In this document: positions 26 through 63,992 of the stretch, in pieces
Layout: the number at the start of each line of letters is the position of its first letter
Numbering within the stretch: position 1 is the stretch's first letter
Source: Amoebophrya sp. A120
Taxonomy: Eukaryota > Protista > Dinoflagellata
DNA: 64,000 nt
Direction: 5' to 3'
Assembly: GCA_905178155.1 (NCBI GenBank)
Contig: CAJINV010000010.1
Location: forward strand, 1,087,486 to 1,151,485
Program-made: the position numbers and the translations under genes
The notes under the pieces: generated by a model
The model's input: only the letters and a program-made list of their open reading frames with translations
The model's database searches: none
What the model was told of the DNA's origin: nothing

Positions 26-3000
26 CGTTACGTGTTTGAGTTACTTCCCCTGGTTCGACATTATGTTCCCCGAGGGAAATGAGCTCTGCACCTCCTCTCC
101 CGAGTTCTGCGACCGAATTCTATTACCCGCGCGGCTGTACATGGACCTGATTCTGAACATCCCCGTGATCACGTTCGCCATGTCGCTCATTCTATCAAAT
201 GCAAAAATGTCTGGGTCTGGAAACTTGTGATGCAAGTCAGTCAATAACACATGCGCTGTAATGCGCCGCCAAGCATGACAAGTTCCTTCGTGCTTCTGTG
301 CTGCGTATTCCGCATGAGAAGCTGCGTTTTTGCATGACGAGCGAGAGAGGCTGTTTGTGGTCACGCAATACAGATTTAAGGGCCATGCCAGATCAGCATG
401 ACAAATCTCGCAATCTTCCAGACGCAGACATTTTTGCATTTGATACATTCCGGGCATAGCCGGCGGGACCATGTCCGTCACGGAGGTGTATCCTGTGCAA
501 AAGTATCGTACCCTTAAGGTAAACCCGCATTACAAATTTTATTTCTCATGCTGAGGGGTATATGCATTTATACGAGTGCGATACTTTTGCAGTGCATAAG
601 GTGTTACCCTTCACGATTTTCCCCTACTTCGTGATGCTGTGTGCGCCCTTTTTGGTGGTGGTTTTGACCCTATGGCCCATGCTGTCCATCATCGCACACG
701 GCCTGGGGTCGGTGTACATGATGCTGGGCGCTTTGTTCTACGTAGCCTACGCATTGGTCCTGTCCTACGGTGCTTTCAAAGGAATGCACACCATGACGGC
801 GTTTGAAGACTTGGGATCGGAAATCTACTTATGAACTGCAAAAGTATCGTATTCGTCTAAATGCATGCAGTACGTTGGAATGTTGTTTTTGGTTGGGATG
901 TTGAGCATCACTACGAAATGTTGAAAATATACTGCGACAGGATTTTTGCGCGCAAGCATCGCAAAAGCAAAAGCAAAGCAATGGCGTACCCTTTTCCCTG
1001 TGAAAGCAAAACAGAACATCCGAACCCGAGAAAACACTCCACATCTCTCCAAGCCGATGGATTGCGCAAAACATTCGATTGCCGGAAAAAGAACAATCGA
1101 AAGAAAAACAGCAATGCAATGGTCTACGGGAGAAGTGAATTGCTGGCAACAGTGGCCCGCAGTTGCCCCGATGTGGTGTGGTGATTTTCTTGCGCGCACG
1201 CAAAAAAGAGGGCAAGACGCGATATCAGCGAAAGAATTTCCCAGCTGTCGTTTTGATATGGAACCAACAAAAGGCAACTTTGGAAAATGGGCGAAAGGAC
1301 TCAAAAGCAGGAGCCTCGCTCAAAATAAAATGTAAAGCAACGCTAAGAAATACGCAGCGCAAAAAACAAAATCGAAGCAAAACCAGCAATGCAATGGTCT
1401 AAGGGAAAAGCGCATTGCTGGCGCAAATAGCTACAAGATGCTAGCAGCAGCGGCGCCGGCGCACCTTGGCCCCTATTAAATGCGAGCGCGAAGAAGAGAA
1501 TGCGAAGCCAACAAAGCAGTGCGCTCGCTCTTATTTGGATGGATGCGCTGAAGGCAACAGAAGATAACCTGGGGAGGAAAGACAGCCCCTATAGAGAATA
1601 GCTACGGGGGAAAGGTCCCTGCTACCACGGCAAGCGAGGGGCGGAAATCGACGACGAGCTAGGAAGTTTGAGTGCACGAGAAGCAGAGCCGCTGCGATCA
1701 TCGGAGCGAGTTTGCTTCGGTGCGTGGGGCGAAGGGCGAAGCGAGATTACGGGGGAGGGGGGGGGGAAAGGGCGCGGAGGTCTGCGTTTTCGCCGCGAGC
1801 CGACTCCCCATGCTCGGTCGCCTGTGCGATTTCGATGCCCCGCGCGACGGCGGGCCCAGCCCCCGAAAAAAAAACCAGACGACAGCAGCGCCGGCCCCTG
1901 AAATAACAAAAAGCACGATCGCGCCCGGCGTGGGGCCCTCGCAATGCACGGACGAGCGCACGCATTTTCGAAGAGGAATGGGGGAGCAATGAATCCCAGG
2001 GCCGCAGAATTTCAGCGGGACAACGCGCGACCAAACTGGCTCGGACGCAAGCGGGGCACGCAGCGGCGCACAATTACGGCACACAAGGGCGAACGCAAGC
2101 GGGGGCCCTACGTCCTACAGGAGACAAGAGGGAGCCACGCGCCCTACGAGAGACAAGGGGAGCCGTTGCTGCTGGTGTTTTTCAAGAAAGCCGGGCGACT
2201 TTTTCAGCATGGTCATAAGGCCAGTTCGGATGTAATCCTGGCGACTTTTTCATGGGTTTTTGTGCGTTTTGAAATGATGAAAAACAATCCAAATTGCGAG
2301 CAGTATTGCACTTTTTCAGCCATCACTGCAAGCAAATATGACGCCGATAGGTTTTTTTTGAAGGGGAAAACCACATTTGATCGCGGCGCGCGATGAAATG
2401 TCTACACATTCCAACTAGAACAGCAATTGATCGCAGCAGCTGTTTTGTACGAAATCTACATTCCATCGTAGCAGCAATCGAAATTTCTGCATGCATGACA
2501 AATTCCCTTAGCATGAGAAAGAAAATTTGTAATGCTGTTTTATCTTGAGAAAAAAATTTGTAATGCATGATTGCAATACGAGTACGATGCTTTTGCACAG
2601 GATACTACTCCCGGACGAACGAATCGAAGTTAGAACAACTGTATGAACCGCAAATATGTCTGGGTCTGGAAGGGTGCAAGGTTTGTCATGCTTGTCTAGC
2701 ATGACTGAAAAGTCTGTGATGTGTGTCCAAGAAGAGACCCTTTTGCTTGTCATGCACAAACGCAGTTTCTTTGTCATGCCGAAAGCGCAACACTAAGCCC
2801 TGCAAATATTTCTCATGGAGGTTGGTTGGCTGTGCATTACAGACCATTCACTATTCACAACTAAGCATTGTTACAAGTTTCCAGACCCAGACGCTTTTGC
2901 ATTTGATAAGCTACAGCATATGGCGATTCAGCATTACACGCCGAAGAAGTCGGTGTTTGGCAAGGTGTTGTCAGCTGTGTCGAAAAACAAGTCCACGAAT

Positions 3001-5376
3001 GCGAGCCCTAAAATGTCCCCGGCAGCTCCGAGCGGCGGCAGGGAAAATCAAGTCGTAGTCTGTGGCGGTGAAATGATCCAGAAATGCAACACAACACACA
3101 CGACCCACAGCGAGGCGCTGAGGACCTATAACGGTCGTGTCGACCACCGCTGCACGGAAAAGAACTACGACAGTACGCTGTTGCAAGATGAGGAGGACAA
3201 CAAGATCACCAAAACTCGATCGGAGGAAGAGATTGGGGACTTGGAAATGAGCGAGCACCAGGCGGTCGCGGTACTGGAAGATGTTAACCCGGTCGTCGTG
3301 TTTAATAATGGTAGTACTGGCGATGGACAGCAGGAACAGCAACCGCAAGACTATTCCGCCCAAGAGAACCACACTTTCGAAGACGCCGAGCAGTCGAACG
3401 CAGAAGAGATGCACAGTCTTGACCACCAGAGTTTCGTCGAAGGGCAGCATAGCAAAATGAACCAGAACTCCGCCGCGGACGACGATAGCGAAGATGCTGA
3501 GCAGAAGAACAACAAGCCCTTATCGGTCCGGGTCGTCGGACTAGCCCCGGCTTCCCCCGAGCGGGAAACGAGTCAGCTGAGCATACAGCAAAACGTCACG
3601 GAAGATTCCGGCGGAATCATGCAGTCAACCTTTATAAAGTCCAGCGAGAAACTATGAAAGTGCACAACTCCCCCTCATTTGTATTGCATGCACAGCAATA
3701 TTACAAGCGTTAGAAAGAATACAGTTTTTGCATGCCAAATTTAGACAGGCGTGTAGTGCTATTTGGGCTGCCAGAACTTGCCATGCATACAGTGCTAAGA
3801 GCCAAGGCGTAAGTTAGGCACTTTGCATGACAAACGAGTGGGGGGGCTGTGCACTTTCATAGAAACTCCGAAAGAAGATGTCGCACTACAGCGGCATGAT
3901 AGAATCCCGACTGAAGAACAACCGAACGGGAGGATTACTTGTCGGGTCGACGTTTCTCGGTGGGGTGGACGACATGACGAACAAGGCGAATGGTACAGCA
4001 GGAGGAGGTGTAAATGAAAACAAGCCGAATGTCGAGTACGCACTGGTACAGGCGACGTTGATCAAGCATCTGTGCACGAACGTGAAGAAGAAGATGATGA
4101 ACGTGATGCGCTTGTCACTCCTTATGCAGATTCTGGCGCTGGGGTTCATCGCGGCGGCAATCATCATTGAGGGCAAGGAGTTCATCGATTTGGCCATCAA
4201 TTCCGATATGGTGGCGAGCATCATGCTGCTCTATGAACTGCAAAAGTATCGTACTAGTAGTAGTAATTGCAACACAAATTCGCTCAGCGTGACAAATGGA
4301 ATTTGTCATGCTTATTTAGCTTGAAAAAGAAATCTGTCTTGCATGACTGCGATTAGTACGAGTACGATACTTTTGCACAGGATATGCTCTTCGCGGACGC
4401 AATGATCAACAAGACCATGATGGACCTTATCACTATCGATTTCCAATTCGGAGCGTTTATGCATTGCAAATGTGTCTTGGTCATCTGGAGACACGCAAAC
4501 TTGTCTGTGATGCGTATTTTAGATCACACGAAAATCTGTCATGCATAAACAGCAAGAGCATCGATCCCGTTACCGTTTCTTGTCACCGAGAGCGGAAATT
4601 TGTCATGCGGATTAAGCATTGGTAGGCGCTTGAAAAACCTGTGATGCTAGGGCTTGCATGGCAGACCTTGAGGGTCAAGCAGAGACAGCATGACAAACAG
4701 CTGTGCTCATCCAGACCAAGATAAATTTGCATTTGATAGCGTTGGTCAAAATGCGATTGTACAATGGCTACATGTCCGACGATCAGGACCTGTCCAACCT
4801 GGCGGTCCTTTTCAAATTTTCCGACGCCTTAAACGAACATTTCTGCAAGGGCATCCTCCGGGCGCAGGCCAAGGAGCAGCAGAAGCGGAGCGGGGACAAA
4901 AACGAAACGGATGGGAACAGTGCTACTACGAAAAACCCGACGTCGGTCGGCGCCAAGGGAAGTAGCGCCGCGTATTACAATGAAAAATGCCCCCACGACC
5001 CCCGAACTTGGGAGCATTTGTATTGCAAACCTTTCCAAGTGAAACACTCGCCCTCTTGCATCTATCAGCATCACAGGTTTCCAATCGTGAATAGCAAAAA
5101 TTTGTATTGCAAAAAACCCCAGCAAGAGCGGCGCTTGTCATGCAGGCGATGCGATACACGCCTAGACTCTGCATCAGAAAGATTCACACTCCTTTCATGC
5201 ATGACAAAAAGTTTTCATGTGGAAGCTTCGCATCACAAATTTTTGCAACTTCAGGGGTGGAAGGCATTTTTCACTGTAATACCGCGAAGAATTTGTTTAC
5301 CGCGCCGGTGTCGTTTGTGGCGAACAAAATGGTCTCCGGGGTGAGTCCGCGCTCGAAAAAGGAATGCGTGGATTGA
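26..5376 (+). CDS. Hypothetical multi-pass membrane protein, 3' part (5' end outside window), split by 8 complete introners
   Basis: Exons ~26-192,451-488,604-829,2610-2641,2914-3652,3867-4231,4390-4457,4744-4972,5287-5376 join in one frame after removing each element + one 5-bp DR: ...FAMSLIPGIAGGTMSVTEVLPFTIFPYFVMLC...EIYSRTNESKLEQLQHMAIQHY...KKECVD*. Several hydrophobic segments and an acidic low-complexity middle. Confidence 0.8.
193..445. mobile_element. Introner family A
   Basis: TIR TATCAAATGCAAAAATGTCTG...CAGACATTTTTGCATTTGATA; DR CATTC/CATTC. Confidence 0.92.
489..598. mobile_element. Introner family B (short)
   Basis: TATCCTGTGCAAAAGTATCG...CGATACTTTTGCAGTGCATA; DR AGGTG/AGGTG. 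Confidence 0.9.
830..2604. mobile_element. Introner family B expanded by a nested 1.6-kb insertion
   Basis: Family B ends at 830 and 2604; DR CTACT/CTACT; frame restored on removal. Confidence 0.88.
867..2490. mobile_element. Nested non-autonomous element inside introner
   Basis: Flanked by ATGCAT at 861-866 and 2491-2496; ends GCAG...CTGC with weak imperfect TIR; internal ~45-bp direct repeat (~1104, ~1378); no recognisable transposase. Confidence 0.7.
2642..2908. mobile_element. Introner family A
   Basis: Family A TIRs; imperfect DR AACTG/AGCTA. Confidence 0.85.
3653..3861. mobile_element. Introner family F
   Basis: TATGAAAGTGCACA...TGTGCACTTTCATA; DR GAAAC/GAAAC. Confidence 0.9.
4232..4384. 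mobile_element. Introner family B
   Basis: Family B TIRs; DR TGCTC/TGCTC. Confidence 0.9.
4458..4738. mobile_element. Introner family A (diverged)
   Basis: TATGCATTGCAAAT...ATTTGCATTTGATA; DR GCGTT/GCGTT. Confidence 0.88.
4973..5281. mobile_element. Introner family D
   Basis: TATTACAATGAAAAATGCC...GGCATTTTTCACTGTAATA; DR CCGCG/CCGCG. Confidence 0.92.
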
Positions 5377-7575: not shown

Positions 7576-9930
7576 ATGACTGCCGCCAACCCTTCGCCCC
7601 AGGGTCACGCCTCTGCGGTGGAGGAGCCAGCGGTGGACTACCAGCTCGACCATCGTGTTCCAAGAACGTCATCGTCTAGCACCGAAGATGGATCCACTTC
7701 ACCGGACAAAACCAAACCGATGAACAAGGAGCGCCACCTCCTCACCGGTTGCTATGAACTCCTCCACTTCGGCCACCTCAACGCGTTGCGACAGGTGAAG
7801 CAGTGCTACACCAATTCGCAGTCAAGTACAAGCTCCAGCAGCAGCAGCAGGGACGTCCACGTCGTCGCAGGGATCCACCCGAACGAGGAGATCTTGCGGG
7901 TGAAGGGCGGGGTTTGCATTTTGGACGAAAAGGAGAAGGAAAGACTGCTGTTGGGGTGCAAATTTGTCGACGAGGTGGCGCACAACGTGAGATACGACAC
8001 TATGGCGTTCTCAATTGTTACATTCTCTACTGTTACATGGATTTGTGATGCGAGAGTGGCAAAATTGAAAGGAAGGATCTTGCGCGTCTTGCATGACAGA
8101 TTTGGCACAGATTCTAAGCCTGTTGGGCCGTCTCAGAACTTGTCATGCGAAGCAGCTCGATGGCGTCGATAGTCAAGGTAATTTTGCACGACAAATCATG
8201 TAACAGTTGAGAATGTAACGTTTGAGAACGCCACAGACACGATACAGCCCGAAGAATTCAACTGCGACTACTGCTTATCAAATGCGAAAATGTCTGGGTT
8301 TGGAAGAGTCATGCTGTTTTTGCATGACACAGAAGGTCTGGCATGGAAGCTCTAGCATCACAGGTTTCGAGAAGCTTCCGCGATGCCGAACCCGCATGAG
8401 AAATCCCCCATTTTGGTGACAGAAAGTCGGCAGCTTTTGCTACCTATGCATGAGAGATTTTTCTGTGTTCTAAAATGCGCATCACAAGTTCGGATCCTTC
8501 CAGACCCAGACACTTTTGCAGTTCATACTGCTGGCACGGGGACGATGCGGTGGTGGTGCAAGGTAGGAAATATCTTTTTCGTTTGGTAGTTTGGAGAATC
8601 TGAATCATCACCATGACCACAACTTGCATAATTAATACTACACTCGTCTTTTTTTCATGCGAGACGAACACTTTAGATTTAGAATGGTGGAAACGTATCA
8701 CTTCGCACATGACAAATACCCACTCTACTACTACTCCTCGCTTCCCAGCACAGGCACCGACATATTCGGGTACGCGAAAAACACCGAGAAATTCAAGACT
8801 CTTCGTATGGCCTGCTCAAGCGTTACAATCTCAAGCGTTATAATAGAATCTGGAATTTGTGTTGCATGATGGGCATGACAGACTCGCACAGCGTTCCACC
8901 TTTTGCAATACAAATTTCGACAGAATGTAGAGGGGTTTGGAGCTCCGGAACTTGTCATGCGCAACCCTATGAGAGTTGGCTGGATCAACATGCTCATCAT
9001 GCAAGACAAATCTCAGATTCTATTGTAACGTTTGAGATTGTAACGCCTGAGCGGGTTATACTTCGCCGCACCGAGGGAATTTCAACCACGCTGATGATAG
9101 CGCGGTTTTTCACGAACCAAGAGCGAGAGGGCGGGTTTTCCGGGTCCAACAGCCCGTCGAAGACAACACGAGGTGCAGGAGGTGGAGCTGCTCCGAGCCC
9201 CTCGCCCGCGCTTTCGGAGGAAGAGGAGACGCTGATGGAGATGAGTTGTCTGGGGGAGAATTTGGCGGAGAAGATTCTTTCGAAGCAGGACAAAACGGAA
9301 ATCCAATACATCAACGCGACGGCGTCGCGCATCTCCCGCTTTTTCCTTCCCAACCGGCCGCGGTCGGTGTGCAAATCCGTGGTGTACTTGCAGGGATGCT
9401 TCGACCTGTTCCACGTGGGTTACTTGGACCTGCTCCAGCTGATTCTCGAAACGGAGCGGAAACGGAAGAATTTGGAATCCGTGAAGGACGTCTTTCTCAT
9501 CATCGGGGTGTTGCATCACACAACAACATCTACTACGACGCATAATTCTGATGTTGACAACGACGGCGATCATCATGTCAAGACGCAGTTCTGCCTGCAG
9601 TCCCTGCACGAGCGGGCGATCTCCATGCTGTCGCTGCGGTGCGTGGACGATGTGGTCCTTGACGTGCAAAATAAGGTGGACGAGACGTTTCGACGGTCTC
9701 TGGGGATCACAACGGTGTATGGGATCGAAAACCACTGCGACTTTGTGAACGACGAGAGGAACGCCAGTTGCGTCGACGCGTGGGTGGACGGGTTTGGGTA
9801 CTTTAGCTCGCGGACGATCCAGCTCCGGGTGTTGAAAAGCAGGAAGGTTTTGAAGGAGAGGCAGGCGAAAAAGAAGGAACCCGAGATGGCGGTGGCCGGG
9901 TCGATCAACATGATCGACAGTGGGGCTTGA
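7576..9930 (+). CDS. PCYT2: Ethanolamine-phosphate cytidylyltransferase (two CT domains)
   Basis: Exons 7576-8000,8241-8275,8533-8562,8754-8805,9066-9930 give GCYELLHFGH, GCKFVDEV, CDYCWHGDD, RTEGISTT and a second domain GCFDLFHVGY...SLHERAISMLSLRCVDDVV. Confidence 0.9.
8001..8235. mobile_element. Introner family E
   Basis: TATGGCGTTCTCAA...TTGAGAACGCCACA; DR GACAC/GACAC. Confidence 0.9.
8276..8527. mobile_element. Introner family A
   Basis: Family A TIRs; DR CTGCT/CTGCT; splits the CDYC|WHGDD motif. Confidence 0.92.
8563..8753 (+). other. Canonical GT-AG spliceosomal intron
   Basis: CAAG|GTAGGA...CACAG|GC; joining gives VVQG-TDIFGYAK in frame; no TIR. Confidence 0.8.
8806..9060. mobile_element. 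Introner family E variant
   Basis: TATGGCCTGCTCAAGCGTTACAATCTC...GAGATTGTAACGCCTGAGCGGGTTATA; DR CTTCG/CTTCG. Confidence 0.9.
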
Positions 9931-34860: not shown

Positions 34861-36156
34861 AAATGGTTTCTAGTATTTAGCTTTCGTTATTTCGGAGTTC
34901 TATTCGCAGCAGCATGGAGCAGCTCCTGCAATGAGACGATGAAAGAGTCCGCAGCTGGATGATGGCAAGCGGTTGCGCGATTCTGTTTCAACTGAAAATC
35001 GGTGAAATTGATTGTAGAAGCTGCGGCCTATGGAAAAAAACATCAGGAAATTCTTGCGATATATAAAACAAGGCGAAAATAAGAGCATGAATGTTCGTAG
35101 TTCGAAGGATCATGATAGAATGAACCACAAGATTATCGATGATCCTGCAAGGAGCTTGATTTGAATGCAATCGGTCCGAGGGTCGATGGAGTGGATTCGG
35201 TTTCGGAAGGTAGAATAAAATGGCATCTCTCTGTACTTAGCGCGAGCGATCCGCGGTGGAGGAGGGAAATAAAAAAGCCTCAACGTGATTAAGATCTTCT
35301 TCAAATAATAGCAAAGGATGATACGATACACGGAAGGAAACGAAATCAAGATCCGAGCGAAAATATAGTATCGCAGTTTTTTTTTGTGGAAATCGTTGCC
35401 TCTATTGTCGGTCGAAGTCGATGTCGAAGGAAGGATCCGCGTTTTTGTCTGGACACAGCAAGCCTATCTACTAACATCGCTGCCTGGTTGATGTTGTGAC
35501 GAGTTTGAAGTTTATATTCCTTCGGAAGCATCATGCCTGCGTGTCAACTTTGCATTCCCTCCCAGGTCCCAAAACTTGAAAAAACTTGAAGTTTAAACTC
35601 GAATAGCAACTTCAGTGGTCTTCATCACAGGCTTTAATCTACTTAAAGTATTTCGTCATCGTCTAGATCAACATCAAAATCAACAAGCTGCAATAGGACC
35701 TAGAAGTAGGGCGCGCCTGTCCTGCTGCTCGCTCGTTAGCTTCTCGACCTATCGCAACCAATACGAAATACGTTCAGCCTGCTCAGAATAGTTTCTCGTG
35801 TTGGAGAAGGAACGAACACGAAGTAGCACGCAGCAGTCACAGTCTGATACCAAAAAGCAGCACACTGTTGTAGTCAACAACATTACATCAACATCTTCAT
35901 CGCTTTTAAGACTCAATCTTTATCTTCTTCAGCTAAATTTTCTCTCCGAACAAACCGCGACCTGTGGAAATTTAAAGCATCCTCTTCGAGTCTGCGACTT
36001 AAAGAGAAAACGTTTATTCATCATTAATAGTACCCTATTATTTTCTACTTCTATTTGATACAACTAGAACTTTTCAAAAAGAACTTTACACCAGCGAGCG
36101 CTTTTATTCATAAAGCTAAAAACAAGAACCACTACAAAAGAAGAAGTTGCAAAAAG

Positions 36157-38889: not shown

Positions 38890-38935
38890 TTCGAACACCG
38901 GCATATTATTATGAACAAGCACGAGCTCGAGCCCG

Positions 38936-39224
38936 TATCCTGAGGAAAAACGTCCCCACGCCAGAGTTGTCATCCAAAAAAATCTGCAAGCCTAAAAACG
39001 TTTCATCTCATCATGGGCAGCCCCATGAGCAGCCTCTTCTAATGCCATCTGGGAGTTTGTCATGCTCTACTAATGAGCAGGATAAGGACCTCCACAGATG
39101 TGGCTTCACTAGCCGAAGACCACTACACTAAAGTAGCCAAGAACATGGCGCTCGCCCTTGTCGATTTGTGTTGCAAGCAGGTCCCGATGTTGACTCTGGC
39201 GTGGAGACGCTTTTGCACAGGATA
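38936..39224. mobile_element. Introner family C, outside the confident CDS
   Basis: Family C TIRs; DR GCCCG/GCAAG (degenerate). Confidence 0.75.
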
Positions 39225-43803: not shown

Positions 43804-44125
43804 TATCCCGAGCAAATAAAGGTGATGCCCACACCCCAGACCCAGAGTTGTCATCTTCCAAATCATCTTCATCTGCAAGCGGAAATAAAGGTTTCCTGAA
43901 ACGATTTTGGCATGCTTTAATCGTAATCAGGATGTAGCACCTAGATTTTTTGATGTGATGTGGCTTGTTCAGACTTGGTCCAAACACCACTACTACATCA
44001 GAGACTCAGCTTTGATGATGTCTTGGTGCCCGGCACCAGCCAATCCTTGTGGATTTGTGATGCAAAGTGCAGCCCATCGTAACTCTGATGGTGATGTGGA
44101 GACGTTTTTGGTACACATGAGGATA
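43804..44125. mobile_element. Degenerate introner family C
   Basis: TATCCCGAG...GACGTTTTTGGTACACATGAGGATA; at the homologous site to 38936-39224; DR not preserved. Confidence 0.65.
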
Positions 44126-47585: not shown

Positions 47586-47991
47586 TATCAAATGCAAAAG
47601 TGTCTGGGTCTGGAAGATTCTGACACTTGTCATGCACGTTTTGCATGGACCCTGATGTCTGTGATGCGTGCCCTAGCGTCACAGATTTTTTGAGAGCTTC
47701 TTGATGCCTATTCCGCATGACAAATGCCCTCTCCGCGTAGGGCGTGGAGCGGGTGTCCACCTAGGGGTATTGGCAGAGGCTAAATCTGTTCTAACGCCAC
47801 GGTATCGGCAGAGGCTAAATCTGTTCCAACGCCGCCCAGACAGGAGTTAAAGGTCAACACACACACACACACACACACGCGTAGCAAAAATTACATTCCT
47901 TTTGGTACTCATGCAATACACATTTTTCTGGAATCCAAACGCAGCATCACAAGTTGCATTCTTCCAGACCCAGACACTTTTACATTCGATA
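47586..47991. mobile_element. Introner family A with nested 137-bp (CA)n-tailed insertion
   Basis: DR AGCAT/AGCAT; nested 47741-47877 flanked by CGCGTAG repeats. Confidence 0.88.
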
Positions 47992-55700: not shown

Positions 55701-58700
55701 CGGGAAGTATTCCAACAACCCTGAGCGAGCGGTGCGGCCCAAGGTGTATCTGCTGCAACAGAATGCTCACGGCTGGGGCATGACGTGGCTACCAGGGCCG
55801 AATGTTGCTGTGGAACGCGACGCCCCCCTTCTCGGTAACGGTTACAATCCGTTACGGTTTACGAACGCCATTACAACGGTTAGGGTAGACAACTTATCAT
55901 TTGTAAAAACGTCCCCGCCCCAGAGTTGAGTTGTAATGCAAATCTGCATGTGCTAAAAAAAAAAATGTTTCTGATGCGGAGACTGATAATGAAAGGCAGT
56001 TTCTGTTGCTGCCTTGCGATTATATCTGCTTCTCACATCCGCATGGTGTTGTAGATTTGTGATGCTGCTTCGCTAGCTAAACGCAACAACATTGCGAACT
56101 GAGTAAATCTCTCATGCGCAGCAGCCAGCGTTGGTTGATTTGTGTAGCAGATTTGCCATCTTGACTCTACTGGGGTGGGGACGGGTTTTGCTCACCATAC
56201 AACTACGTGCAGCCTTACTTTCAGGCGGCGATGTTCGCCCAGCAAGTGGAGGAGCAGGACAAAATCGTGGAGAAATGTGATGAGGAGGAGCGGGCCTGCA
56301 TTGTTGTGATCAATCTACAGGAGGATCTCTTTGTCGGCAAACGCAACCCAGATTTTAAGAAGAAGACCTCGGCTATATCCTGAGGAAAAACGTCCCCACA
56401 CCAGGGTCAAGACGGGAAATCTACTAGACAAATCAACCTACCAGCGCTGCTTGTTCCGCATGACAAGTTTGCCCTCGTAATGTGCTAATCCTGTTCAGCT
56501 ATTTCCGCAGCGTGGTCACAGATCTAGCATATCCCATATCATGCTGGTTCCAGCGTCACAAATTCCAAAAGACGCCGAAGAAAATGCTTCTCATGGGGCT
56601 TCGCATGAGAAACTTTTTTTGGCATGCAGATTGATTAGCATGACAACTGTTGGGTGGGGACGTTATTTTTCCTCAGGATAAGCTAATAGTACAGAACCAG
56701 AAGAGCAGGAGTATCTCGACGTGAAGCCTGTCCCGGGTGCCTACTGGACCGCGATGCTGCAGCTAGACCGGCTGGACGGCTGGAAAAGCATGTCGGACCC
56801 GCAGAAGTCCTACTACAAGCTTCCGGGAACACTCCACAGTCAGGTACCCAAAGAAAAACTGATTGTAGTACGTGTAACTTTTATTATTTTGGCGGAGCTG
56901 CTGCTGCATTGATTACAACTACAAGTCTGTCTGGCATGATGACAGCAAACACCTGTCTTCATGCGCAGATAGTCCGTGAAACTGAAAACGCGCCCGAATG
57001 GAGTTCCCTGTAATACATGACTAGCATCGTCACAGACGCAATCATCTTATGTGCACCATCACCAGCATCTTCACAGACGCATGACCTACAATCTTTTTTT
57101 GTGGGATATTTGTTGCTATGAAATGCAAAAATGTCTGGGTCTGCAAGAATGCGCGATTTGTCATGCTGCTTTTCCATGACCCATGAGGTCTGGAATGCAG
57201 GACCTAGCATGACAGATTCTGCGAGACCTTTCTCATGCCTGTCCTGCATGAGAAACTCCCTCCCCACTTGGTCAAAAGTGGACGACTTTTGGTAATCATG
57301 CAACACAGATTTTTGCATGCTGCAGATTTAGCATGACAAGTTGCAATGTTCCAGACCCAGACACTTTTACATTTCATAGTTGCTGCGGTCCTACCACGGA
57401 GAAGCGGTGAATGAGATATCAAAATCAAGAATCCCCCCACCCCATACTCACACTGGAAATTTGTGATGCCGATTTGTAACCACAAATCATGTTGTCATGC
57501 TAGAAGGGAACAGATGGGGACTGTAGTGCTGGCTAGCTTGGGAAAGCCTTGCATCTTCTTCAGCATGACAGGAGGCAGCTGGAAGTGGGAAACAGCATGG
57601 CAAATTTCTTCCAAACAAGGCCGCGACTGCGTCTCTTGCCCTTCTAGCAATGCAATCCAATTTGTGTACGCAAATCAAGCATCACAAATTTCCTGTCCGA
57701 TATGGGGAGGGGGGATTTTTCCTCTCAATATGAGACCGCAGTCGGCATACTGCACCCGTATAGTGCAGAGGAGATGCGGAAAATTGTTCAGAAGGCAGAG
57801 GCATTTGTGAAGAACAAGAATCTGCTACAAAAGAACCGTATGCAATGCAAATAAAGTATCGTACTGCACTACAAATTTTCGCCGTATCATGTTGGCATCG
57901 GATGGAATTTGTAATGTTGTTTTGGCTTTTTAGCTAGGAACGCGATTCGTTATGCCTATCTGCAATGAGTAGGGGTACTACGAGTGAGATAGCGATATAG
58001 TAGTACTTTCGCAATGCATAAGCCGCACCGAGGCAGATCGAATTCTTCAGGAAGCCAAGGATAAAAAGAGCGAAGCTCGGTGGTACACGATGACAGTGGA
58101 CGAGGAAAATGGATACGAACTGCTACTGGGAAATTCGGTGTACGTGAAAACCAGCCGAAAATTCCGTGTCAATTGCTTTGACATGGTGATTGACGGGCAG
58201 GGGTTCAATGACCGGTCGGAGGTGGTGTACAAAAATTTTGAAGAGTCGACCATCGGTATACTGCACTGAAAAATTCCCCCTGCTCGTCCCCAAAGAAACG
58301 GAATAAACGAACGAGATCTTTTGTGTAGCTTCATTAAATTTGTGATCACAAGTCACCGAAGATTCATTTAGGCTACAAGGGAAGTAGTAGTAGAGATGTG
58401 AACACCTGTAGTGCTGACTGAGACTGGCGTGGGGAACAAGCCTTGCGCTTTCAGCATGACAGAGAGGAAGCAACTGGAAGCGGACGACAAATTATTGCCT
58501 GCAAACGAGGCAGCTGCAAGTGCATCTCTTGGGCTTCTAGCAATACCAGTCGACCTGTGTTGCAAGTACGCAAATTATCCAGCGTGGACACAAATGTTCT
58601 TTTCGAGGATTATATGGGGAGCAGGGGCAATAACTTTTCTTCCCAATACGGAACGAAGTCTTTCGCGTATGGGGGTATCGAGTGCCGGGTCGACTTGTTT

Positions 58701-60164
58701 CAAGACAGTGAGTCGAGCTCCGCGTCCTGTTGCGGGGGGGACGGCAGCAGTGATTTTGTCGTGCCACAAGAAGACGTCGACAAGCAGCCACAGCAGTCAA
58801 ACGATCTTGGGCCGCCCCTTGACGGGGACGAGAACAAACCGCAAAGGAAAGTGTATGTGCCCGTGTTTCGCACGGGCTCGGCGCATCTGAGCGGCACGGA
58901 GTTCGACGACTTGAAAGAATTCTATGATTGCGTCAGGTTTGAAATCAACAAAGTTGAAATGATTTGTCATGCATAAAATGGATGCCAGTTCTTGGGACCC
59001 AGTTTCTAAGTGGCGCATGACAAATTTTCCGAGTACCGGAATCCAATTTGTCATGCTGTTTGGGCACAGACGGCTGCTTTTGTTATGCTCCTTTAGCAGC
59101 TCTACTTCAAACCCTAAACAGGCTGACACGCGGCCTCACTTGCCATCCCGGCAAGACAGGCACTTCATGCCTTGCATTTTATGCATGACAAATCATTTCA
59201 ACTTTGACGATTTCAAACCTGACGCTTCCATAAATTCTTGCAGTTGGCCGTGGAGGGACAAACCCTGGATGGGCAGAGAACCGAAAATATCATATGTAAA
59301 AACGTCCCCACCCCATAGTCAAGTTGGGGTCCTAGCAAGACAAATCCACAAGCTTTGGAAGCCACGCATGAGAAGTTGCAGTCCGTAGTGTAGGTGTAGT
59401 GCATGTTAGCAAGGACAACCGCATCACAAATCCATCTGTTTATCCTGTTTACAGCATTACAAATTCCAAAACGCGATTGGAAATGCCTCTCATGGAGATG
59501 CGCATTACAAATCTTCCTGTAGTCGCAAATCTGCACGACAACTATGGGGTGGGGATGTTTTTACTCAGGATAGAAAACCGCACCAAAACTTTGTATGAGG
59601 AAGAGAAGGACTCGCTGCTGCTTCCCTACATCCAGATAGACACTACGATGACGGCGCCGCCGCTCTGGACAAATTTTGTTGCGCGCTTACGTGTATGCAA
59701 TGCAAAAACATCGTATTAGTACAAATTGCATCACAAATTCCGGCAAGAACAGAACTGGAATTTGTAATGCTGTTTCAGGCTTAGAAAGAGATGTGCATGA
59801 ATGTAATTTAATATACGAGTACGATACTTTTGCACAGGATAACGTGAGAAGCGGAGGACTTACGCGGGCGGTGCATATCGCAAGAAAAAACTGTTTCACT
59901 GTGAACTTGTGATGCACAGAAGGCAACATCACAGAACTATTTGTCTTGCTCCACCTGCAAGACCTCGACTCTTTGACGGTGTTTTCCCTTTGGAAGCGCG
60001 CATGGCAAATTTTCTGTGTCATGTGTAAGATGAAACTTGTGATGCAGATCTTGCAAAATCATCACAGTGAACAAACAGTTCTTTCGTGGGATAGTGCACC
60101 CTTGGACCCTAGTGTTTTGGAGCAAGGCAAACTGATGCGCAGCGTTTTGGCAAGGGGGAAAAGG
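49785..60164 (+). CDS. Large hypothetical protein, 5' part (copy 1), with at least 18 introners, two kb-size TIR insertions and one canonical intron
   Basis: Continuous frame on element removal: MLRQHP...YCYLALLGGSFYRATAVV MMTGSRSTNS...CPFDRTWSTDMKLACEVLRDVYHF...GVLFVQNVKIS...KFRVNCFDMVIDGQG...GKLMRSVLARGK; no family recognised. Confidence 0.72.
49932..50085. mobile_element. Introner family J
   Basis: DR CAGCT/CAGCT. Confidence 0.9.
50131..51279. mobile_element. 1.15-kb TIR element inserted in coding repeat
   Basis: ~55-bp imperfect TIRs (CAAAAAACTTTTTTTTTGGCTACATATGA / TCATATGTAGCAAAAAAAAAAAGTTTTTTTGG); exact ends uncertain. Confidence 0.7.
51327..52307. mobile_element. ~1-kb TIR element with TA ends inserted in coding repeat
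   Basis: TATGTCTTCAACGGGCGTTAGCAT...AGTGAATTT / AAATTCACT...ATGCTAACGCGTGTTAAAGCTCTA; flanks both contain AAAAAGCG; exact ends uncertain. Confidence 0.65.
52716..52922. mobile_element. Introner family A
   Basis: DR AGGAG/AGGAG. Confidence 0.9.
53021..53164. mobile_element. Introner family B
   Basis: DR AGTAA/AGTAA. Confidence 0.9.
53235..53511. mobile_element. Introner family A
   Basis: DR ACGTG/ACGTG. Confidence 0.9.
53851..54175. mobile_element. Introner family I
   Basis: DR GTCCG/GTCTG. Confidence 0.88.
54251..54519. mobile_element. Introner family A
   Basis: DR GGCGT/GGCGT. Confidence 0.9.
55002..55329. mobile_element. Introner family C
   Basis: DR ACCGA/ACCGA. Confidence 0.9.
55380..55695. 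mobile_element. Introner family I
   Basis: DR CTGCC/CTGCC. Confidence 0.9.
55895..56199. mobile_element. Introner family C
   Basis: DR CAACT/CAACT. Confidence 0.88.
56376..56680. mobile_element. Introner family C
   Basis: DR GGCTA/AGCTA. Confidence 0.88.
56844..57076 (+). other. Canonical GT-AG intron
   Basis: CAG|GTACCC...TCACAG|ACG; phase-0 join TLHSQ-THDLQSFFVGYLLL is in frame. Confidence 0.7.
57117..57378. mobile_element. Introner family A
   Basis: DR GTTGC/GTTGC. Confidence 0.9.
57417..57730. mobile_element. Introner family I
   Basis: DR TGAGA/TGAGA. Confidence 0.9.
57839..58020. mobile_element. Introner family B (diverged)
   Basis: DR AACCG/AGCCG. Confidence 0.82.
58259..58648. 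mobile_element. Introner family I (diverged)
   Basis: DR CGGTA/CGGAA; frame restored. Confidence 0.78.
58923..59232. mobile_element. Introner family H (opposite orientation to 16391-16700)
   Basis: DR AATTC/AATTC. Confidence 0.9.
59288..59572. mobile_element. Introner family C
   Basis: DR GAAAA/GAAAA. Confidence 0.9.
59694..59841. mobile_element. Introner family B
   Basis: DR ACGTG/ACGTG. Confidence 0.9.
59876..60093. mobile_element. Introner family G (opposite orientation to 27675-27882)
   Basis: DR GTGCA/GTGCA. Confidence 0.9.
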
Positions 60165-60455
60165 TATGGAATTGCAAACATCGATCTGGGTTTAGATGTG
60201 TCAATCGGAAGGTGCGTTTGGATTCCAAAAAAAACTGTATTTTTGCATCCGCAGCAAAGGGAATGGAATTTTTGCTACGTCGCGGAGAGGGTATTTTTTG
60301 TCATGCGGAATAGGCAACATCAGGAAGCCCTGAAAAATAAAAAATCTGTAATGCTAGGGCATGCATCACAGAGGACGTCATGGCTCATGCAAAAGAACGT
60401 GCGTGACAAGCCTTAGAATCTTCCAGACATCATCCAGGGATATTTGCAATTGATA
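60165..60455. mobile_element. Chimeric family A introner (left end matches the 61145 element, right end matches the 63178 element)
   Basis: Flanks AAAGG and GCTGC do not match each other, but each matches a different element in copy 2; switch point ~60217. Confidence 0.8.
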
Positions 60456-60985
60456 GCTGCGTGAAGCACACTATGAACTGCAAAAGTATCGTACTCGTAT
60501 AAATGCATGACAAATTGTTCCCCCAGCATGAGAATTCAATTAAGATTTGTAATGCGGATTTACCTTGAGAAAAAAATTTGTAATGCAAGACTTGCATTTA
60601 TACGAATACGATACTTTTGCACAGGATACACACAATGCTGAAGTTTGGGACCGCTTTCCAGCAGTATCAAATGTAAAAATGTCTGGGTCTGGAAGGATGC
60701 AGAGATTTGAGATGCAGCTTTGGCATGAACCCTGATGTCTGTGATGCATACCCTAGCATCACAGATTTTTTGAGGGCTTCATGATGCCTATACCGCATGA
60801 GAAATGCCCTCTCGCCGTCGCAAAAACTGCAACTCTTTTGCTGTTCATGCAATACAGATTTTTGTAGAATCCAAATGCAGCATCACAAGTTGCATCCTTC
60901 CAGACCCAGACATTTTTGCAATCCATAAGCAGAGTACTTGGACCAGTTGGAAGCAGAAGCCAACGGCGAGCTCTAGTAGTACGAA
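60217..60985 (+). repeat. Near-identical duplicate of 63233-64000 (gene 3' end, including introners 60472-60628 and 60665-60927)
   Basis: Colinear sequence with a few substitutions and indels; stop at 60974-60976; assembly N at 61058. Confidence 0.9.
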
Positions 60986-61115
60986 ATTAATTTATTAAAG
61001 CCCAAAAGGACAAGCTGCAACCGCATTGCGTTGTACATCATCGCGTCACATTCAGAANTTTAAGCATGCAGAGTTGCATGACAACTATGGTGTGGGTACG
61101 TTTTTACTTAGGATA

Positions 61116-63992
61116 TGCGCAGCGTTTTGGCAAGGGGGAAAAGGTATGGAATTGCAAACACCGATCTGGGTTTAGATGTGTCAATCGGAAGGTGCGTGAG
61201 CGTGACGCCGAGATCTGTATTGCATGAAGGGGATTATGTACATAGCCAGTTTGTTGAAAGGCAGCTTCTTTGTCAACATGCTAAATGTTACGTCGAATTA
61301 ACTCGCGATAATAGATAAGAACTGAATTGTATCTTCGATGATGCGTTCATGCCGGGCAAAAGGGTGCTTTATTGTCATCCCAGGCTCACCAGCACGACTT
61401 TGTTCTATCCAGACCCAGACACATTTGCAATGCATAAAAGCAACGCTGTCTTCATTCGGAACGCGGGAAATCTGGTGCGCAAGCAGGTGGAGCTATCACA
61501 CAGAAAAAAGTTTTTAGCAGGGGGTTATAATTTGTACTGCAAAAATAAGTACAACTAACAAATACACAGAAAATCGAAAACCTGCATAAGTATCCCCTAC
61601 ACATCATGTGACCATGGGCTCGCCCATGGCAGATACCTCAGCTGTGCATTTATTTTTGCATGAGGTACAACAAATGTAGTTAATGTTGACTGCTAGTAGC
61701 TTTTTTCTTTCTGAAAGGCGCTCTTTGCGGGAATTTTGGAGCGGTACTTGATGCCGCACGAGCATGAAGAAAAGTTTACGGACCTGAAGCGCATTCTCGG
61801 CAATCCGAAGCGGCGCCGTCGCGCTGCGGATGATGACACGACCGAAAAAAGTGCCGACAACGAGGCAGAGCGAATCCCAACGATTTTGTCAATCTCGTCC
61901 GACTACGCAAAAGCCCCGGAGCACATGGGCCTCTTCGTCAGCTTCTTATCCTATGTAGAAAGGTCCCCATCCCATAGTCAACATGGGGAATCGGTTTGAC
62001 AAATCCACACGTTTTGGCTGTTTTGCATGACAAGCTTGGACTCGTAGTGTAGTGCTGTTTGACGTAGCTCAGCAGCATCACAGATCTACGATATCACGCT
62101 GATTGGAAAATGAAAAATTTTTCCAGAACACGACTAGAGAATGCTTCTCATGGGGCTCCGCATGAGAAACGTTGCCAGCTTGCAGAGTTGCATTACATTT
62201 ACAGCTGTGGGGTGGGGCCGTTTTTAGATACGATACTTCTTGCAGCGAATCTACGGAGCGGCGTTTAAGCGCGGCGACCGGATAGCGTACCGTATTACAA
62301 AGAAAAATGCCCCCACCCCCGAACTTGGGAGCATTTGTATTGCAAACCTTTCCGAATGAAACATTCGCCCTCTTCTTGCATCTATCAGCATCACAGGTGT
62401 CCAGTCGTGAATAGCAAAAATTTCTATTGCAAAAGGCCCCAGCAAGAGCGGCGCTTGGCATGCAAGCGATGCGATACACGCCTACACTCTGCATCAGAAA
62501 GATCCATACTCCTTTCAATCATGCATGACAAAAAGTTTTCATTGGGAAACTTCGCATCACAAATTTTTGCAATTTCAGGGGTGGGGGGCACTTTTCACTG
62601 TGATATACCGCGGGTATGATCCCGACCTGGTCCATGTGGACGAGAATGGCACGGAGCTGCAGGGTATCCTGTGCAAAAGTATCGTATTCGTATTGCAATC
62701 ATGCATTACAAATCCTTTTGTCAAGTCAAATCCGCATAACAAATTTTATTTCTCATGCTGAGGAAATTTGTAATGCATTTATACGAGTGCGATACTTTTG
62801 CAATGCATACAGGGGAACAATAATGTGCCGAACACGTCGTTCCGTATCCACTGAAAAAAACCCTTGTTCCCCATCCATTTTTTGCATGACAGAAACCGAA
62901 TTTTGTGCATGTTTTGCATGACAAATTGGATGTGGGCGGGGTTTTTTTCCTGTGGATATTCCACTATCGGTACAGCGAAACGGATATGAAATGCAAAAGC
63001 ATCGTACTAGTAGTAGTAATCGCATTACAAATTTGCTCAGCATGACACATGGAATTTATCATGCTGGTTTACCTTGAAAAAGAGATTTGTCATGCATAAA
63101 CGCGATTACTACGACTACGATACTTTTGCACAGGATAACGGAGGACAGCGCCATGTTTCTGTTCGATCGGGAGCTGCTATCAAGTGCAAATATGCCTGGG
63201 TCGGGAAGAATGCTGCAACTTGTCATGCTGCATTTGGATTCCAAAAAAAACTGTATTTTTGCATGAGCAGCAAATAAGGGGATGGAATTTTTGCTACGCG
63301 GAGAGGGTATTTTTTGTCATGCGGAATAGGCAACATCAAGAAGCCCTGAAAAATAAAAAATCTGTGATGCTAGGGCATGCATCACAGAGGACATCATGGC
63401 TCATGCAAAAGAACGTGCGTGACAAGCCTTAGAATCTTCCAGACATCATCCAGGGATATTTGCAATTGATAGCTGCGTGAAGCACACTATGAACTGCAAA
63501 AGTATCGTACTCGTATAAATGCATGACAAATTGTTCCCCCAGCATGAGAATTCAATTAAGATTTGTAATGCGGATTTACCTTGAGAAAAAAATTTGTAAT
63601 GCAAGACTTGCATTTATACGAATACGATACTTTTGCACAGGATACACACAATGCTGAAGTTTGGGACCGCTTTCCAGCAGTATCAAATGTAAAAATGTCT
63701 GGGTCTGGAAGGATGCAGAGATTTGCGATGCAGCTTTGGCATGAACCCTGATGTCTGTGATGCATACCCTAGCATCACAGATTTTTTGAGGGCTTCCTGA
63801 TGCCTATACCGCATGAGAAATGCCCTCTCGCCGTCGCAAAAACTGCAACTCTTTTGCTGTTCATGCAATACAGATTTTTGTAGAATCCAAATGCAGCATC
63901 ACAAGTTGCATCCTTCCAGACCCAGACATTTTTGCAATCCATAAGCAGAGTACTTGGACCAGTTGGAAGCAGAAGCCAACGGCGAGCTCTAG
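61116..63992 (+). CDS. Large hypothetical protein, complete 3' part (copy 2), with 10 introners
   Basis: Overlaps copy 1 at MRSVLARGK; continues NAVFIRNAGNLVRKQVELFAGILERYLMPHEH...FLQRIYGAAFKRGDRIAYRGYDPD...ELREAHNAEVWDRFPAEYLDQLEAEANGEL*. Confidence 0.75.
61145..61436. mobile_element. Introner family A (diverged)
   Basis: DR AAAGG/AAAGC. Confidence 0.85.
61494..61716. mobile_element. Introner family G2
   Basis: TATCACACAGAAAAAAG...CTTTTTTCTTTCTGAAA; DR GGAGC/GGCGC. Confidence 0.72.
61947..62235. mobile_element. Introner family C
   Basis: DR CTTCT/CTTCT. Confidence 0.9.
62293..62605. mobile_element. Introner family D
   Basis: DR TACCG/TACCG. Confidence 0.92.
62665..62809. mobile_element. 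Introner family B
   Basis: DR CAGGG/CAGGG. Confidence 0.9.
62845..62958. mobile_element. Introner family K (114 bp)
   Basis: TATCCACTGAAAAAAACCC...GGGTTTTTTTCCTGTGGATA; DR TTCCG/TTCCA. Confidence 0.85.
62985..63137. mobile_element. Introner family B
   Basis: DR ACGGA/ACGGA. Confidence 0.9.
63178..63471. mobile_element. Introner family A
   Basis: DR GCTGC/GCTGC. Confidence 0.9.
63488..63644. mobile_element. Introner family B
   Basis: DR CACAC/CACAC. Confidence 0.9.
63681..63943. mobile_element. Introner family A
   Basis: DR AGCAG/AGCAG. Confidence 0.9.

What the first reader, a model, noticed from the sequence alone, without database searches (positions are those of the whole stretch)
193..63943. 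Window-wide system of TIR-bounded, 5-bp-duplication-flanked non-canonical introns that must be precisely removed from coding sequence
Seen: about 80 elements in 64 kb, nearly all TA(T)...(A)TA, with family-specific TIRs, a 5-bp flanking duplication and no conserved GT-AG. In intact genes, deleting the element plus one duplication copy restored the frame at every junction I checked, including conserved motifs (CDYC|WHGDD, PLEMVKVN|CQ, PS|GP). Established: IR/DR introner elements are reported in Amoebophrya, so the class is probably not new, but to my knowledge the excision machinery and mobilising transposase are unresolved. Inference: these are MITE-like DNA transposons domesticated as introns and removed by a mechanism independent of splice dinucleotides. 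Programmed DNA excision (like ciliate IESs) is an alternative I cannot exclude from sequence.
Basis: partly seen in the sequence, partly recalled or inferred. Interest (0 to 1): 0.92.

Follow-up and report, generated by a model that had tools for sequence, protein, structure and literature searches.

The report
Fixed cut rule for transposon introns
The genes of this marine parasite are packed with about 90 small transposon-like inserts of an already described kind, and its transcripts lack them with cuts that, wherever they could be placed, fall one base before and four bases after the hairpin-forming ends, a rule that would let a new copy in either orientation be spliced out cleanly, likely by a modified spliceosome.

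Summary
Observation confirmed. There are 88 inverted-repeat elements, 87 of the TA(T)...(A)TA type, with a 5-bp flanking duplication. A strict scan gave 52 versus 0 in each of 10 shuffles. These are the introner elements published for Amoebophrya sp. A120, so the class is already known.

What I did not find in print is the cut rule. All 24 displayed transcript-contig joints skip element+5 nt. Where the two duplication copies differ, one register fits all 24: intron = N-TAT...ATA-NNNN, cut 1 nt before and 4 nt after the inverted repeat. The duplication need not match (1 of 5 at 37325). The register follows the transcript strand. A genomic-like run keeps the elements, so DNA excision is unlikely.

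Removal is AG-independent but not motif-free: U+2 in 53/53 supported introns, A-7 in 52/53. Best reading: a modified spliceosome that measures from the transposon ends (inferred; no lariat data). A Euglena-like separate machine is the main rival. No transposase was found in the window; a Ginger-like candidate is published.

Limits: contigs from one study, and no minus-strand gene. The scan noted single similar introns in two other dinoflagellate genomes (unchecked).

The parts
193..63943 (.). Set of 88 TIR elements (87 TA(T)...(A)TA type, 1 TTAGAC type); each predicted intron runs from start-1 to end+4 on the + strand
   Evidence: Coordinates: 193-445;489-598;830-2604;2642-2908;3653-3861;4232-4384;4458-4738;4973-5281;8001-8235;8276-8527;8806-9060;16052-16317;16391-16700;16728-17022;17097-17353;17395-17545;17596-17870;17953-18244;18427-18664;18901-19169;19218-19378;19459-19743;19809-19957;19983-20288;20342-20633;20699-21016;21040-21318;21405-21709;21797-22181;22260-22526;25277-25428;25487-25726;25776-26037;26101-26265;26340-26601;26886-27182;27253-27466;27675-27882;27949-28099;28177-28491;29652-29938;29978-30971;31293-31688;31717-31865;31908-32612;32769-33031;34177-34862;36659-36955;37325-37563;38191-38647;38936-39224;42917-43481;43804-44125;45502-45722;47052-47225;47271-47565;47586-47991;49932-50085;52716-52922;53021-53164;53235-53511;53851-54175;54251-54519;55002-55329;55380-55695;55895-56199;56376-56680;56845-57108;57117-57378;57417-57730;57839-58020;58259-58648;58923-59232;59288-59572;59694-59841;59876-60093;60472-60628;60665-60927;61145-61436;61494-61716;61947-62235;62293-62605;62665-62809;62845-62958;62985-63137;63178-63471;63488-63644;63681-63943
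37324..37567 (+). Intron with an unambiguous joint; duplication only 1/5, 3' end ATC; fixes the 1+4 register
   Evidence: joint 37323>37568, 0 ambiguous letters, in 4 of 4 runs; in-register stem, z -3.75
38190..38651 (+). Intron with an unambiguous joint; duplication 3/5, 3' end ACA; fixes the 1+4 register
   Evidence: joint 38189>38652, 0 ambiguous letters, in 4 of 4 runs
50131..51289 (+). 1159-nt intron N-TAT...ATG-NNNN with no duplication; folded ends pair +2..+4 with -7..-5
   Evidence: only donor/acceptor pair giving the peptide of annotated protein P0001; MFE fold
51326..52313 (+). 988-nt intron N-TAT...AGA-NNNN with no duplication; long stem 3 nt out of register
   Evidence: only pair giving the P0001 peptide
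57113..57115 (+). Predicted 3-nt micro-exon between two elements
   Evidence: exon size at register 4; P0001 allows only register 3 or 4 at 56845; no RNA laid here
34177..34862 (+). 686-nt MITE-like element with TTAGAC ends and a long near-perfect TIR, in a 3' UTR; skipped with +5 nt
   Evidence: joint 34171>34863 in 4 of 4 runs, register not resolvable
29978..30971 (+). Composite element (150-nt family with about 850 nt inserted), skipped whole
   Evidence: similar composites at 830-2604, 31908-32612 (skipped), 42917-43481 (joined across in run X4, table 8), 47586-47991
43804..44125 (+). Element just after a stop codon, with the TAT-to-AAA spacing of its 3' arm broken; retained in the listed contigs
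   Evidence: contiguous pieces from 43482 in X3, X4 (to 44300) and X5 (to 44010) (table 8); 6 joints of that call were not shown
24..5376 (+). Membrane-protein-like gene (5' end outside or unresolved) with 8 elements
   Evidence: 651 open codons after removal
7576..9930 (+). Cytidylyltransferase-like gene with 3 elements and one GT-AG intron (8563-8753, inferred from sequence)
   Evidence: PF01467 weak, below cut-off; 468 aa
15910..22544 (+). DXD glycosyltransferase gene with 19 elements
   Evidence: PF04488; 479 aa; 11 joints displayed plus one double skip
24952..28581 (+). Mitochondrial carrier gene with 10 elements
   Evidence: PF00153; 437 aa; 2 joints displayed
29633..33160 (+). 183-aa gene with 6 elements and GT-AG introns 31097-31248 and 33162-33373 (3' UTR) in the same transcript contig
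36157..39224 (+). Gene of unknown family with 3 coding-region elements and 1 spliced 3' UTR element
49785..63943 (+). Large gene matching annotated protein P0001, with about 30 elements; assembly duplication around 60100-61150
   Evidence: 964/964 aa identity of my register-3/4 splice of 52328-60160 to P0001

Best explanation
These are the known Amoebophrya A120 introner elements, transposon-like inserts with inverted ends and a 5-bp duplication, and transcripts lack them with cuts that fit one register, 1 nt before the opening TAT and 4 nt after the closing ATA, likely made on RNA by a modified spliceosome that measures from these end motifs rather than reading GT-AG. SHOWN: element+5 nt is absent from transcript contigs; one register fits every displayed joint; the duplication need not match; both orientations of a family are removed; a genomic-like run retains the elements. 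INFERRED: (1) Insertion by a DDE transposase/integrase that makes a 5-bp duplication with no target preference; the Ginger-like A120 family 38 is the published candidate. (2) The inner stem (TIR positions 9-25) brings the ends together and may replace U1-dependent bridging. (3) N-UAU(G/C) acts as a donor with a free first base, and the A at -7 is the branch point, with the acceptor set by distance from it. (4) Since 1+4 equals the 5-bp duplication and both strands show TAT...ATA, a fresh copy in either orientation restores the original message exactly, which would explain how the elements saturate coding sequence. Odds: RNA-level fixed register about 0.85; spliceosome rather than a separate machine about 0.6-0.65.
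For: Joints: 24 of 24 displayed non-canonical joints skip element+5; compatible with register k=4: 24, k=3: 19, k=5: 18, k=0: 11. Two joints have zero ambiguity and give k=4 in 4 of 4 runs. Annotated protein P0001 independently allows only k=3-4 at 56845, k<=4 at 61145 and 62845, k>=3 at 61494, and places two duplication-less long introns exactly 1 nt before TAT. Strand: 9 of 9 joints that separate k=4 from its mirror k=1 take k=4, while families lie in both orientations (10+/11-, 5+/11-, 6+/4-; pairwise checks). That is about 0.002 if the cut followed the element's own orientation (my calculation, assuming random orientation). The same contigs skip two GT-AG introns. Run X1 holds clean single-copy pieces spanning 21797-22526 and 29652-29938 intact and shows none of the 11 X3 joints. 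Motifs in 53 supported introns: U+2 53, A+3 52, U+4 49, S+5 50, A-7 52, U-6 49, A-5 51. Six introns whose ends came from joints or annotation rather than my motif scan all have U+2, A+3 and A-7. Folding: 17 of 21 fold with z<-2; the ends are linked by a stem in 20 of 21. TIR positions 4-7 are least complementary (0.42-0.61 versus 0.72-0.95 at 9-20). A120 keeps U2, U4, U5, U6 and 83 of 89 spliceosomal proteins but no detected U1 snRNA (PMC7789003). Fixed branch-to-acceptor distances of similar size exist in Yarrowia, Giardia and Trichomonas (PMC2483917).
Against: No raw reads of this strain (X9 and X10 did not cover the genes). Contigs show only majority paths, and the four RNA-like runs are 2 samples of 1 study with 'RNA' a guess on record. 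2901 joints and 6 joints were not displayed and could hold other registers. Only 4 junctions are exact, 2 of them from a gene model. All genes with elements are on the + strand, so the mirror test is missing. Motif conservation is partly circular, since most elements were found by TAT/ATA, and transposase contacts could equally explain it. Four supported introns lack an in-register MFE stem or have a weak one (21797, 31293, 38191, 51326). The TTAGAC element has T at -7 under k=4 yet is skipped. No lariat, branch or protein evidence. No significant drift toward G+1 (8 v 3, p=0.11) or G-1 (4 v 2, p=0.34). A U1-70K homologue is reported in strain A25 (PMC12787238), so U1 may only be undetected. 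X1 differences were incompletely counted, and X1 may be the assembly's own source.
Confidence: 0.6

Rival explanations
1. Same fixed 1+4 register on RNA, but cut and ligated by a non-spliceosomal machine that recognises the closing helix, as proposed for Euglena nonconventional introns (released as circles without lariats).
For: No AG, free first and last bases, orientation independence, and a terminal helix with fixed spacers parallel the Euglena code N3-CDG...CHG-N5-6 (PMC12501133). Euglenid introns leave as circles (review PMC11282704). U1 snRNA was not detected. The TTAGAC element is skipped although it lacks A-7.
Against: Some supported introns have no in-register stem yet keep U+2, A+3 and A-7, which suggests linear motif reading. 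NUAU(G/C) resembles a spliceosomal donor (recalled). Fritillaria shows that a U2 spliceosome can adapt to transposon introns (review only).
Confidence: 0.28
2. Splice sites float within the duplication, guided by the direct repeat (the 'variable border' view of Farhat 2021).
For: 11 of 24 joints allow k=0 and most allow several registers. Published calls are mixed. Hidden joint rows were not seen.
Against: Joints with 1/5 and 3/5 duplication are cut exactly at k=4; two long introns have no duplication; no displayed joint excludes k=4. At 37325 an alternative 4/5 repeat pair (skip 250, same frame) is not used; the TAT-anchored skip of 244 is.
Confidence: 0.07
3. Programmed DNA excision (IES-like) produces element-free templates.
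For: TA-bounded ends with duplications recall IESs (recalled). Contigs drop rare variants, X1 was incompletely counted, and the kind of run is not on record.
Against: X1 pieces at depth 24-31 span elements that X3 skips, and none of the 11 X3 joints is in X1. The skipping contigs also skip GT-AG introns. A cut tied to the transcript strand is hard to get from symmetric DNA ends.
Confidence: 0.03
4. Reverse-transcriptase template switching across hairpins flanked by direct repeats (false introns).
For: Hairpin plus short direct repeat is the classic substrate (recalled), and the evidence is cDNA-derived.
Against: Joints occur with zero microhomology. Up to 19 elements per gene must go for any long frame. 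The skipped form is the main contig in 4 of 4 runs.
Confidence: 0.02

Closest known systems
Introner elements / non-canonical introns of Amoebophrya sp. A120 (Farhat et al. 2021, PMC7789003)
   Same: Same organism by the source name of P0001. TAT + 7 nt + AAA inverted repeats, 3-5-nt direct repeats, hairpin, repeated families, no internal transposase, RNA-supported removal.
   Different: The paper calls splice sites variable relative to the hairpin and the border unknown (Fig. 3 legend; Fig. S23 legend says 1-5 nt). Here the duplication is 5 bp and the cut fits one register, 1+4. Figures themselves were not visible.
Euglena nonconventional introns (Nomura et al. 2025, PMC12501133)
   Same: MITE-like inverted ends; sites set by fixed spacers from a paired triplet; no GT-AG.
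   Different: Triplet TAT/ATA with spacers 1 and 4, versus CDG/CHG with 3 and 5-6. No purine preference at the first exon base here (G 26, C 22, A 21, T 19). Euglena was tested by knock-in; this case is not.
A120 introner family 38, Ginger-like TIR element (Gozashti et al. 2025, PMC12130899)
   Same: Listed with '5-bp TSD, TA/TA Termini', as for these elements.
   Different: About 810 bp with Copia/Gypsy-like ORFs; none of the 27 ORFs scanned here hit a transposase or integrase. That dataset's site calls for A120 families are mixed (40 of 58 rows seen).
Fritillaria borealis non-canonical introns (Henriet 2019, seen only through review PMC11282704)
   Same: Transposon-derived, TIR and TSD, genome-wide, non-GT-AG.
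   Different: Preferred ends AG-AC/AG-AT and reported excision by the spliceosome; here the terminal bases are free and the machine is untested.
Micromonas / Symbiodinium / Polarella introners (PMC9860276, PMC11282704)
   Same: TIR+TSD elements that become introns without changing the message.
   Different: They carry or co-opt GY and AG sites; only 1 of 88 elements here is GT..AG at the fitted register.

Membership tests
Amoebophrya A120 introner elements | Inverted repeat starting TAT, about 7 variable nt, then a run of A | tested here: met
   T 86/86, A 86/86, T 82/86 at positions 1-3; A 72-80/86 at 11-13 (that list predates two corrections)
Amoebophrya A120 introner elements | 3-5-nt direct repeat overlapping the exon/intron boundary | tested here: met
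   5 bp, 54 of 86 perfect; cut lies inside it
Amoebophrya A120 introner elements | Removed from transcripts with non-GT-AG ends | tested here: met
   24 of 24 displayed joints; 1 of 24 has any G(T/C)..AG register
Amoebophrya A120 introner elements | Repeated families; genome is A120 | tested here: met
   11 families of 2-21 copies and 21 singletons; P0001 named Amoebophrya sp. A120, 964/964 aa
MITE / non-autonomous TIR DNA transposon | TIRs, fixed-length TSD, no coding capacity, both orientations | tested here: met
MITE / non-autonomous TIR DNA transposon | Cognate autonomous element with the same ends; empty-site polymorphism | not testable with these tools
   no whole genome held; collection scans gave chance hits only
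Ginger-like elements | LTR-integrase-like DDE transposase inside the TIRs | tested here: not met
   no such Pfam hit in 27 chosen ORFs, including those inside the long elements; only the ends and TSD match family 38
Spliceosomal (U2-type) introns | GT/GC donor and AG acceptor | tested here: not met
   at k=4: GT 32, CT 20, TT 18, AT 18; AG 7 of 88
Spliceosomal (U2-type) introns | Lariat with branch adenosine; snRNP dependence | not testable with these tools
   A at -7 in 52 of 53 is only a candidate
Euglena-type nonconventional introns | N3-CDG...CHG-N5-6 | R signature | tested here: not met
   signature here is N1-TAT...ATA-N4 with no exon purine bias
Euglena-type nonconventional introns | Paired triplet at a fixed distance from both cuts | tested here: met
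   (works-like feature; pairing predicted, and absent in some supported introns)
Euglena-type nonconventional introns | Release as full-length circles | not testable with these tools
   no raw reads of this strain
Ciliate IES-like DNA excision | Element-free junctions in genomic DNA | tested here: not met
   0 of 11 joints in X1, and elements spanned intact; weak, since contigs drop rare forms

The most novel reading that the evidence does not exclude
A120 runs a splicing code with no fixed terminal bases, in which a transposon end is the whole signal: N|UAU as donor, the A of AUA seven bases from the end as branch point, and the hairpin in place of U1. The 1+4 offset equals the 5-bp duplication, so any insertion in either orientation is born a perfect intron. 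It would be the second eukaryotic lineage after Euglena with a genome-wide offset-from-hairpin code, arisen independently, and it handles introns over 1 kb, nested insertions and a 3-nt exon.
Probability: 0.45. Interest if true: 0.85.

Novelty: already known. Interest (0 to 1): 0.62.

Why it matters
The elements are published for this organism, hence 'already known'. The open question since 2021 is how more than 60% of introns without GT-AG are recognised, and the borders were reported as variable or unknown. A single register turns that into direct tests: where the branch or circle junction must lie, which bases to mutate, and what U6, U2 or Prp8 should look like. It would also allow tens of thousands of A120 introns to be re-annotated unambiguously. 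And it explains why transposon saturation of exons costs little: the offset matches the duplication and the ends are palindromic. I did not find the rule in searches or in the texts read. Figures, theses, Roy 2023 and Henriet 2019 were not available and could already contain it.

Tried and rejected
- No whole genome was held, so no genome-wide transposase or snRNA search.
- No RNA holder was on record.
- Raw RNA runs X9 and X10 laid only 323 and 273 partial reads on repeats, apparently another strain; uninformative.
- My first reading of register k=1 assumed the 21.8-23.5 kb transcript was minus-strand. It was dropped when the joints proved to finish the plus-strand DXD gene.
- My first end for element 38191 (38503) was wrong and was corrected from the joint. 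Element 31293 was missed by all my scans and found from a joint.
- Homologue search used the wrong frame and says nothing. One search found one 149-aa protein (P0002, 97% identical) that joins the 18427 element but reads into the 19218 element; not used as evidence.
- TIR pattern scans: 1 metagenome and 11 viral hits, all chance matches.
- Rfam: none. Pfam on 27 chosen ORFs (the window has 120 of >=120 aa): no transposase. A sub-threshold PF12919 hit on the DXD exon is a shared glycosyltransferase motif.
- Drift toward G at the intron ends was not significant.
- An alternative 250-nt skip at 37322-37566 was rejected by the joint.
- No earlier notes on this genome.
Full report
Observation. The elements are real and far above chance. 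A strict scan found 63 duplication-flanked inverted-repeat pairs, 52 of them TA...TA, against 3-10 pairs and no TA...TA pair in each of 10 shuffles (similarly). Curation gave 88 elements covering 25,876 bp. Two are copies from a duplicated stretch beside the N at 61058. The duplication is 5 bp: 54 of 86 are perfect, with sharp edges and no base preference. The ends read TAT-N7-AAA on both strands. There are 11 families and 21 singletons, and members lie in both orientations. Those orientation labels were propagated by BLAST and can err in palindromic elements, but pairwise checks confirm opposite orientation for 17395/31717, 17395/27949, 17953/38936, 18427/8001 and 193/37325. Removing element+5 nt opens long frames in six genes; other lengths break five of them early.

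Identity. An exon search returned P0001, named by its source 'unnamed protein product [Amoebophrya sp. A120]'. It matches my splice of 52328-60160 at 964 of 964 residues. Farhat et al. 2021 (PMC7789003; abstract, sections 10, 11, 12, 16, 32, passages and supplement legends read, figures not visible) describe A120 introner elements with TAT + 7 nt + AAA repeats and 3-5-nt direct repeats. They report no transposase found in A120, U1 snRNA undetected, and splice sites 'variable' with the border 'unknown'. The class is known.

Transcript evidence. Runs were listed and laid. The two raw RNA runs laid did not cover the genes. Contig runs X3, X4, X5 and X7 are guessed RNA (2 samples, 1 study) and behave as spliced RNA, since they skip two GT-AG introns. 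One search displayed 15 joints: 11 from X3 and 4 repeat-derived from X1, with 2901 not shown. One search displayed 15: 13 non-canonical and 2 GT-AG, with 6 not shown. All 24 non-canonical joints skip element+5 nt, and only one has any G(T/C)..AG register. These include composites of 705 and 994 nt and the 686-nt TTAGAC element. Run X1 behaves as DNA. It has clean pieces at depth 24-31 spanning 21797-22526 and 29652-29938 intact, and none of the 11 X3 joints, though its counts were incomplete. One element, 43804-44125, just after a stop codon, is retained in the listed contigs.

The cut register. Write the message as the first k bases of the upstream copy plus the rest of the downstream copy; mismatched copies then bound k. 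Of 24 joints, k=4 fits 24, k=3 fits 19, k=5 fits 18 and k=0 fits 11. Two joints are exact (37323>37568 and 38189>38652), three need k>=4 and four more need k<=4. P0001 adds k=3-4 at 56845 (implying a 3-nt exon), k<=4 at 61145 and 62845, k>=3 at 61494 and k>=2 at 57839. It also shows two introns of 1159 and 988 nt with no duplication that begin exactly 1 nt before TAT; this is gene-model evidence, not reads. So the intron is N-TAT...ATA-NNNN. The duplication is dispensable (1/5 at 37325), and there a competing 4/5 repeat pair in the same frame is ignored. Nine of nine joints able to separate k=4 from its mirror k=1 take k=4. Since elements lie both ways round, the offset follows the transcript, which points to an RNA process (about 0.002 under random orientation, my calculation; most of the nine have no family from which to read orientation). 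No minus-strand gene with elements is in the window.

Signals. In 53 introns supported by joints or P0001: U+2 53, A+3 52, U+4 49, C/G+5 50, A-7 52, U-6 49, A-5 51, with free +1 and -4..-1. This is partly circular, but six introns whose ends came from joints or annotation (21797, 22260, 31293, 38191, 50131, 51326) all keep U+2, A+3 and A-7. Seventeen of 21 folded introns have z<-2 and 20 of 21 link their ends (for 37325). TIR positions 4-7 are the least complementary, and the in-register stem is weak or missing in four supported introns. Motif and stem probably both contribute (inference).

Mechanism. I commit to RNA splicing measured from the transposon ends (about 0.85) by a modified spliceosome (about 0.6-0.65 of that). 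NUAU(G/C) looks like a donor with a free first base (recalled knowledge of donor consensus). A-7 lies in the range of fixed branch-to-acceptor distances in Yarrowia, Giardia and Trichomonas (PMC2483917, passages). A120 retains U2, U4, U5 and U6. Against this: no lariat data; the TTAGAC element lacks A-7; no significant drift to G ends; and a U1-70K homologue is reported in A25 (PMC12787238, passages). The main rival is a Euglena-like separate machine. Euglena uses N3-CDG...CHG-N5-6 with strict spacers (PMC12501133; abstract, sections 8 and 12) and releases circles (PMC11282704, passages and section 6). Floating borders, DNA excision and template switching are each disfavoured as set out under the rivals.

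Mobilisation. No transposase was found in 27 chosen ORFs, and no autonomous copy in collection scans. Gozashti 2025 (PMC12130899; passages and 40 of 58 A120 rows of Dataset file 8; files 13 and 14 not searched) lists family 38 as Ginger-like with '5-bp TSD, TA/TA Termini', a fitting candidate that I did not test. Its site calls for A120 families are mixed, as expected if the register was unresolved.

Novelty. The elements are already known. The 1+4 rule, its independence from the duplication and its strand dependence were not found in searches, nor in passages of PMC9860276, PMC12005148 and PMC11453091. Roy 2023 and Henriet 2019 were not read; the Roy preprint's search listing shows no mention of Amoebophrya. 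The unseen Farhat figures (3, S19-S23) may bear on this. Two earlier scan notes describe single similar introns in other dinoflagellate genomes (unchecked). Interest 0.62: a known class, but a concrete rule that makes the open mechanism testable.

Noticed in passing
window 60100-61150 and 63450-64000: Near-identical duplicate (562/564) and an apparently chimeric element (60165-60455) beside the N at 61058; likely a scaffolding overlap. The annotated protein jumps across it.
   Followed up: partly
window 34177-34862: TTAGAC-ended element fits the end motif reported for the other strain, A25 (TTA, two purines), yet is skipped in these transcripts; 51 nt of its TIR are perfectly complementary.
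   Followed up: partly
window 38259-38389 and 43135-43260: The same 130-nt GC-rich insert (88% identical) sits inside two different elements; possibly another small mobile sequence.
   Followed up: no
window 830-2604: 150-nt-family element expanded to 1775 nt by an insert with an internal 60-nt repeat; no Pfam hit in its two ORFs.
   Followed up: partly
window 31908-32612: Insert flanked by a roughly 20-nt direct repeat inside the element; whole element skipped in transcripts.
   Followed up: partly
window 11850-14318 and 41078-42043: Long element-free ORFs (822 aa with no Pfam hit; 321 aa NADAR PF08719) amid element-saturated genes; possibly recent or retroposed genes. A 45-nt direct repeat (40928-40972 / 42213-42257) brackets the NADAR ORF.
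   Followed up: no
window 42850-43800 and 45315-46698: Tandem paralogous genes with different elements at different positions, a natural empty-site comparison.
   Followed up: no
window 22545-23503 and 33161-35000: Long apparent 3' UTRs (1-1.8 kb) in transcript contigs, one with a GT-AG intron right after the stop and a skipped element.
   Followed up: partly
window 39448-40665: Highest contig depth with no obvious ORF and no Rfam match; possibly a repeat or a non-coding RNA. Contig depth cannot rank expression.
   Followed up: no
window 1-25: Looks like the 3' end of a further element cut by the window start.
   Followed up: no
whole window: All genes carrying elements are on the + strand, as expected for unidirectional gene clusters.
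   Followed up: no
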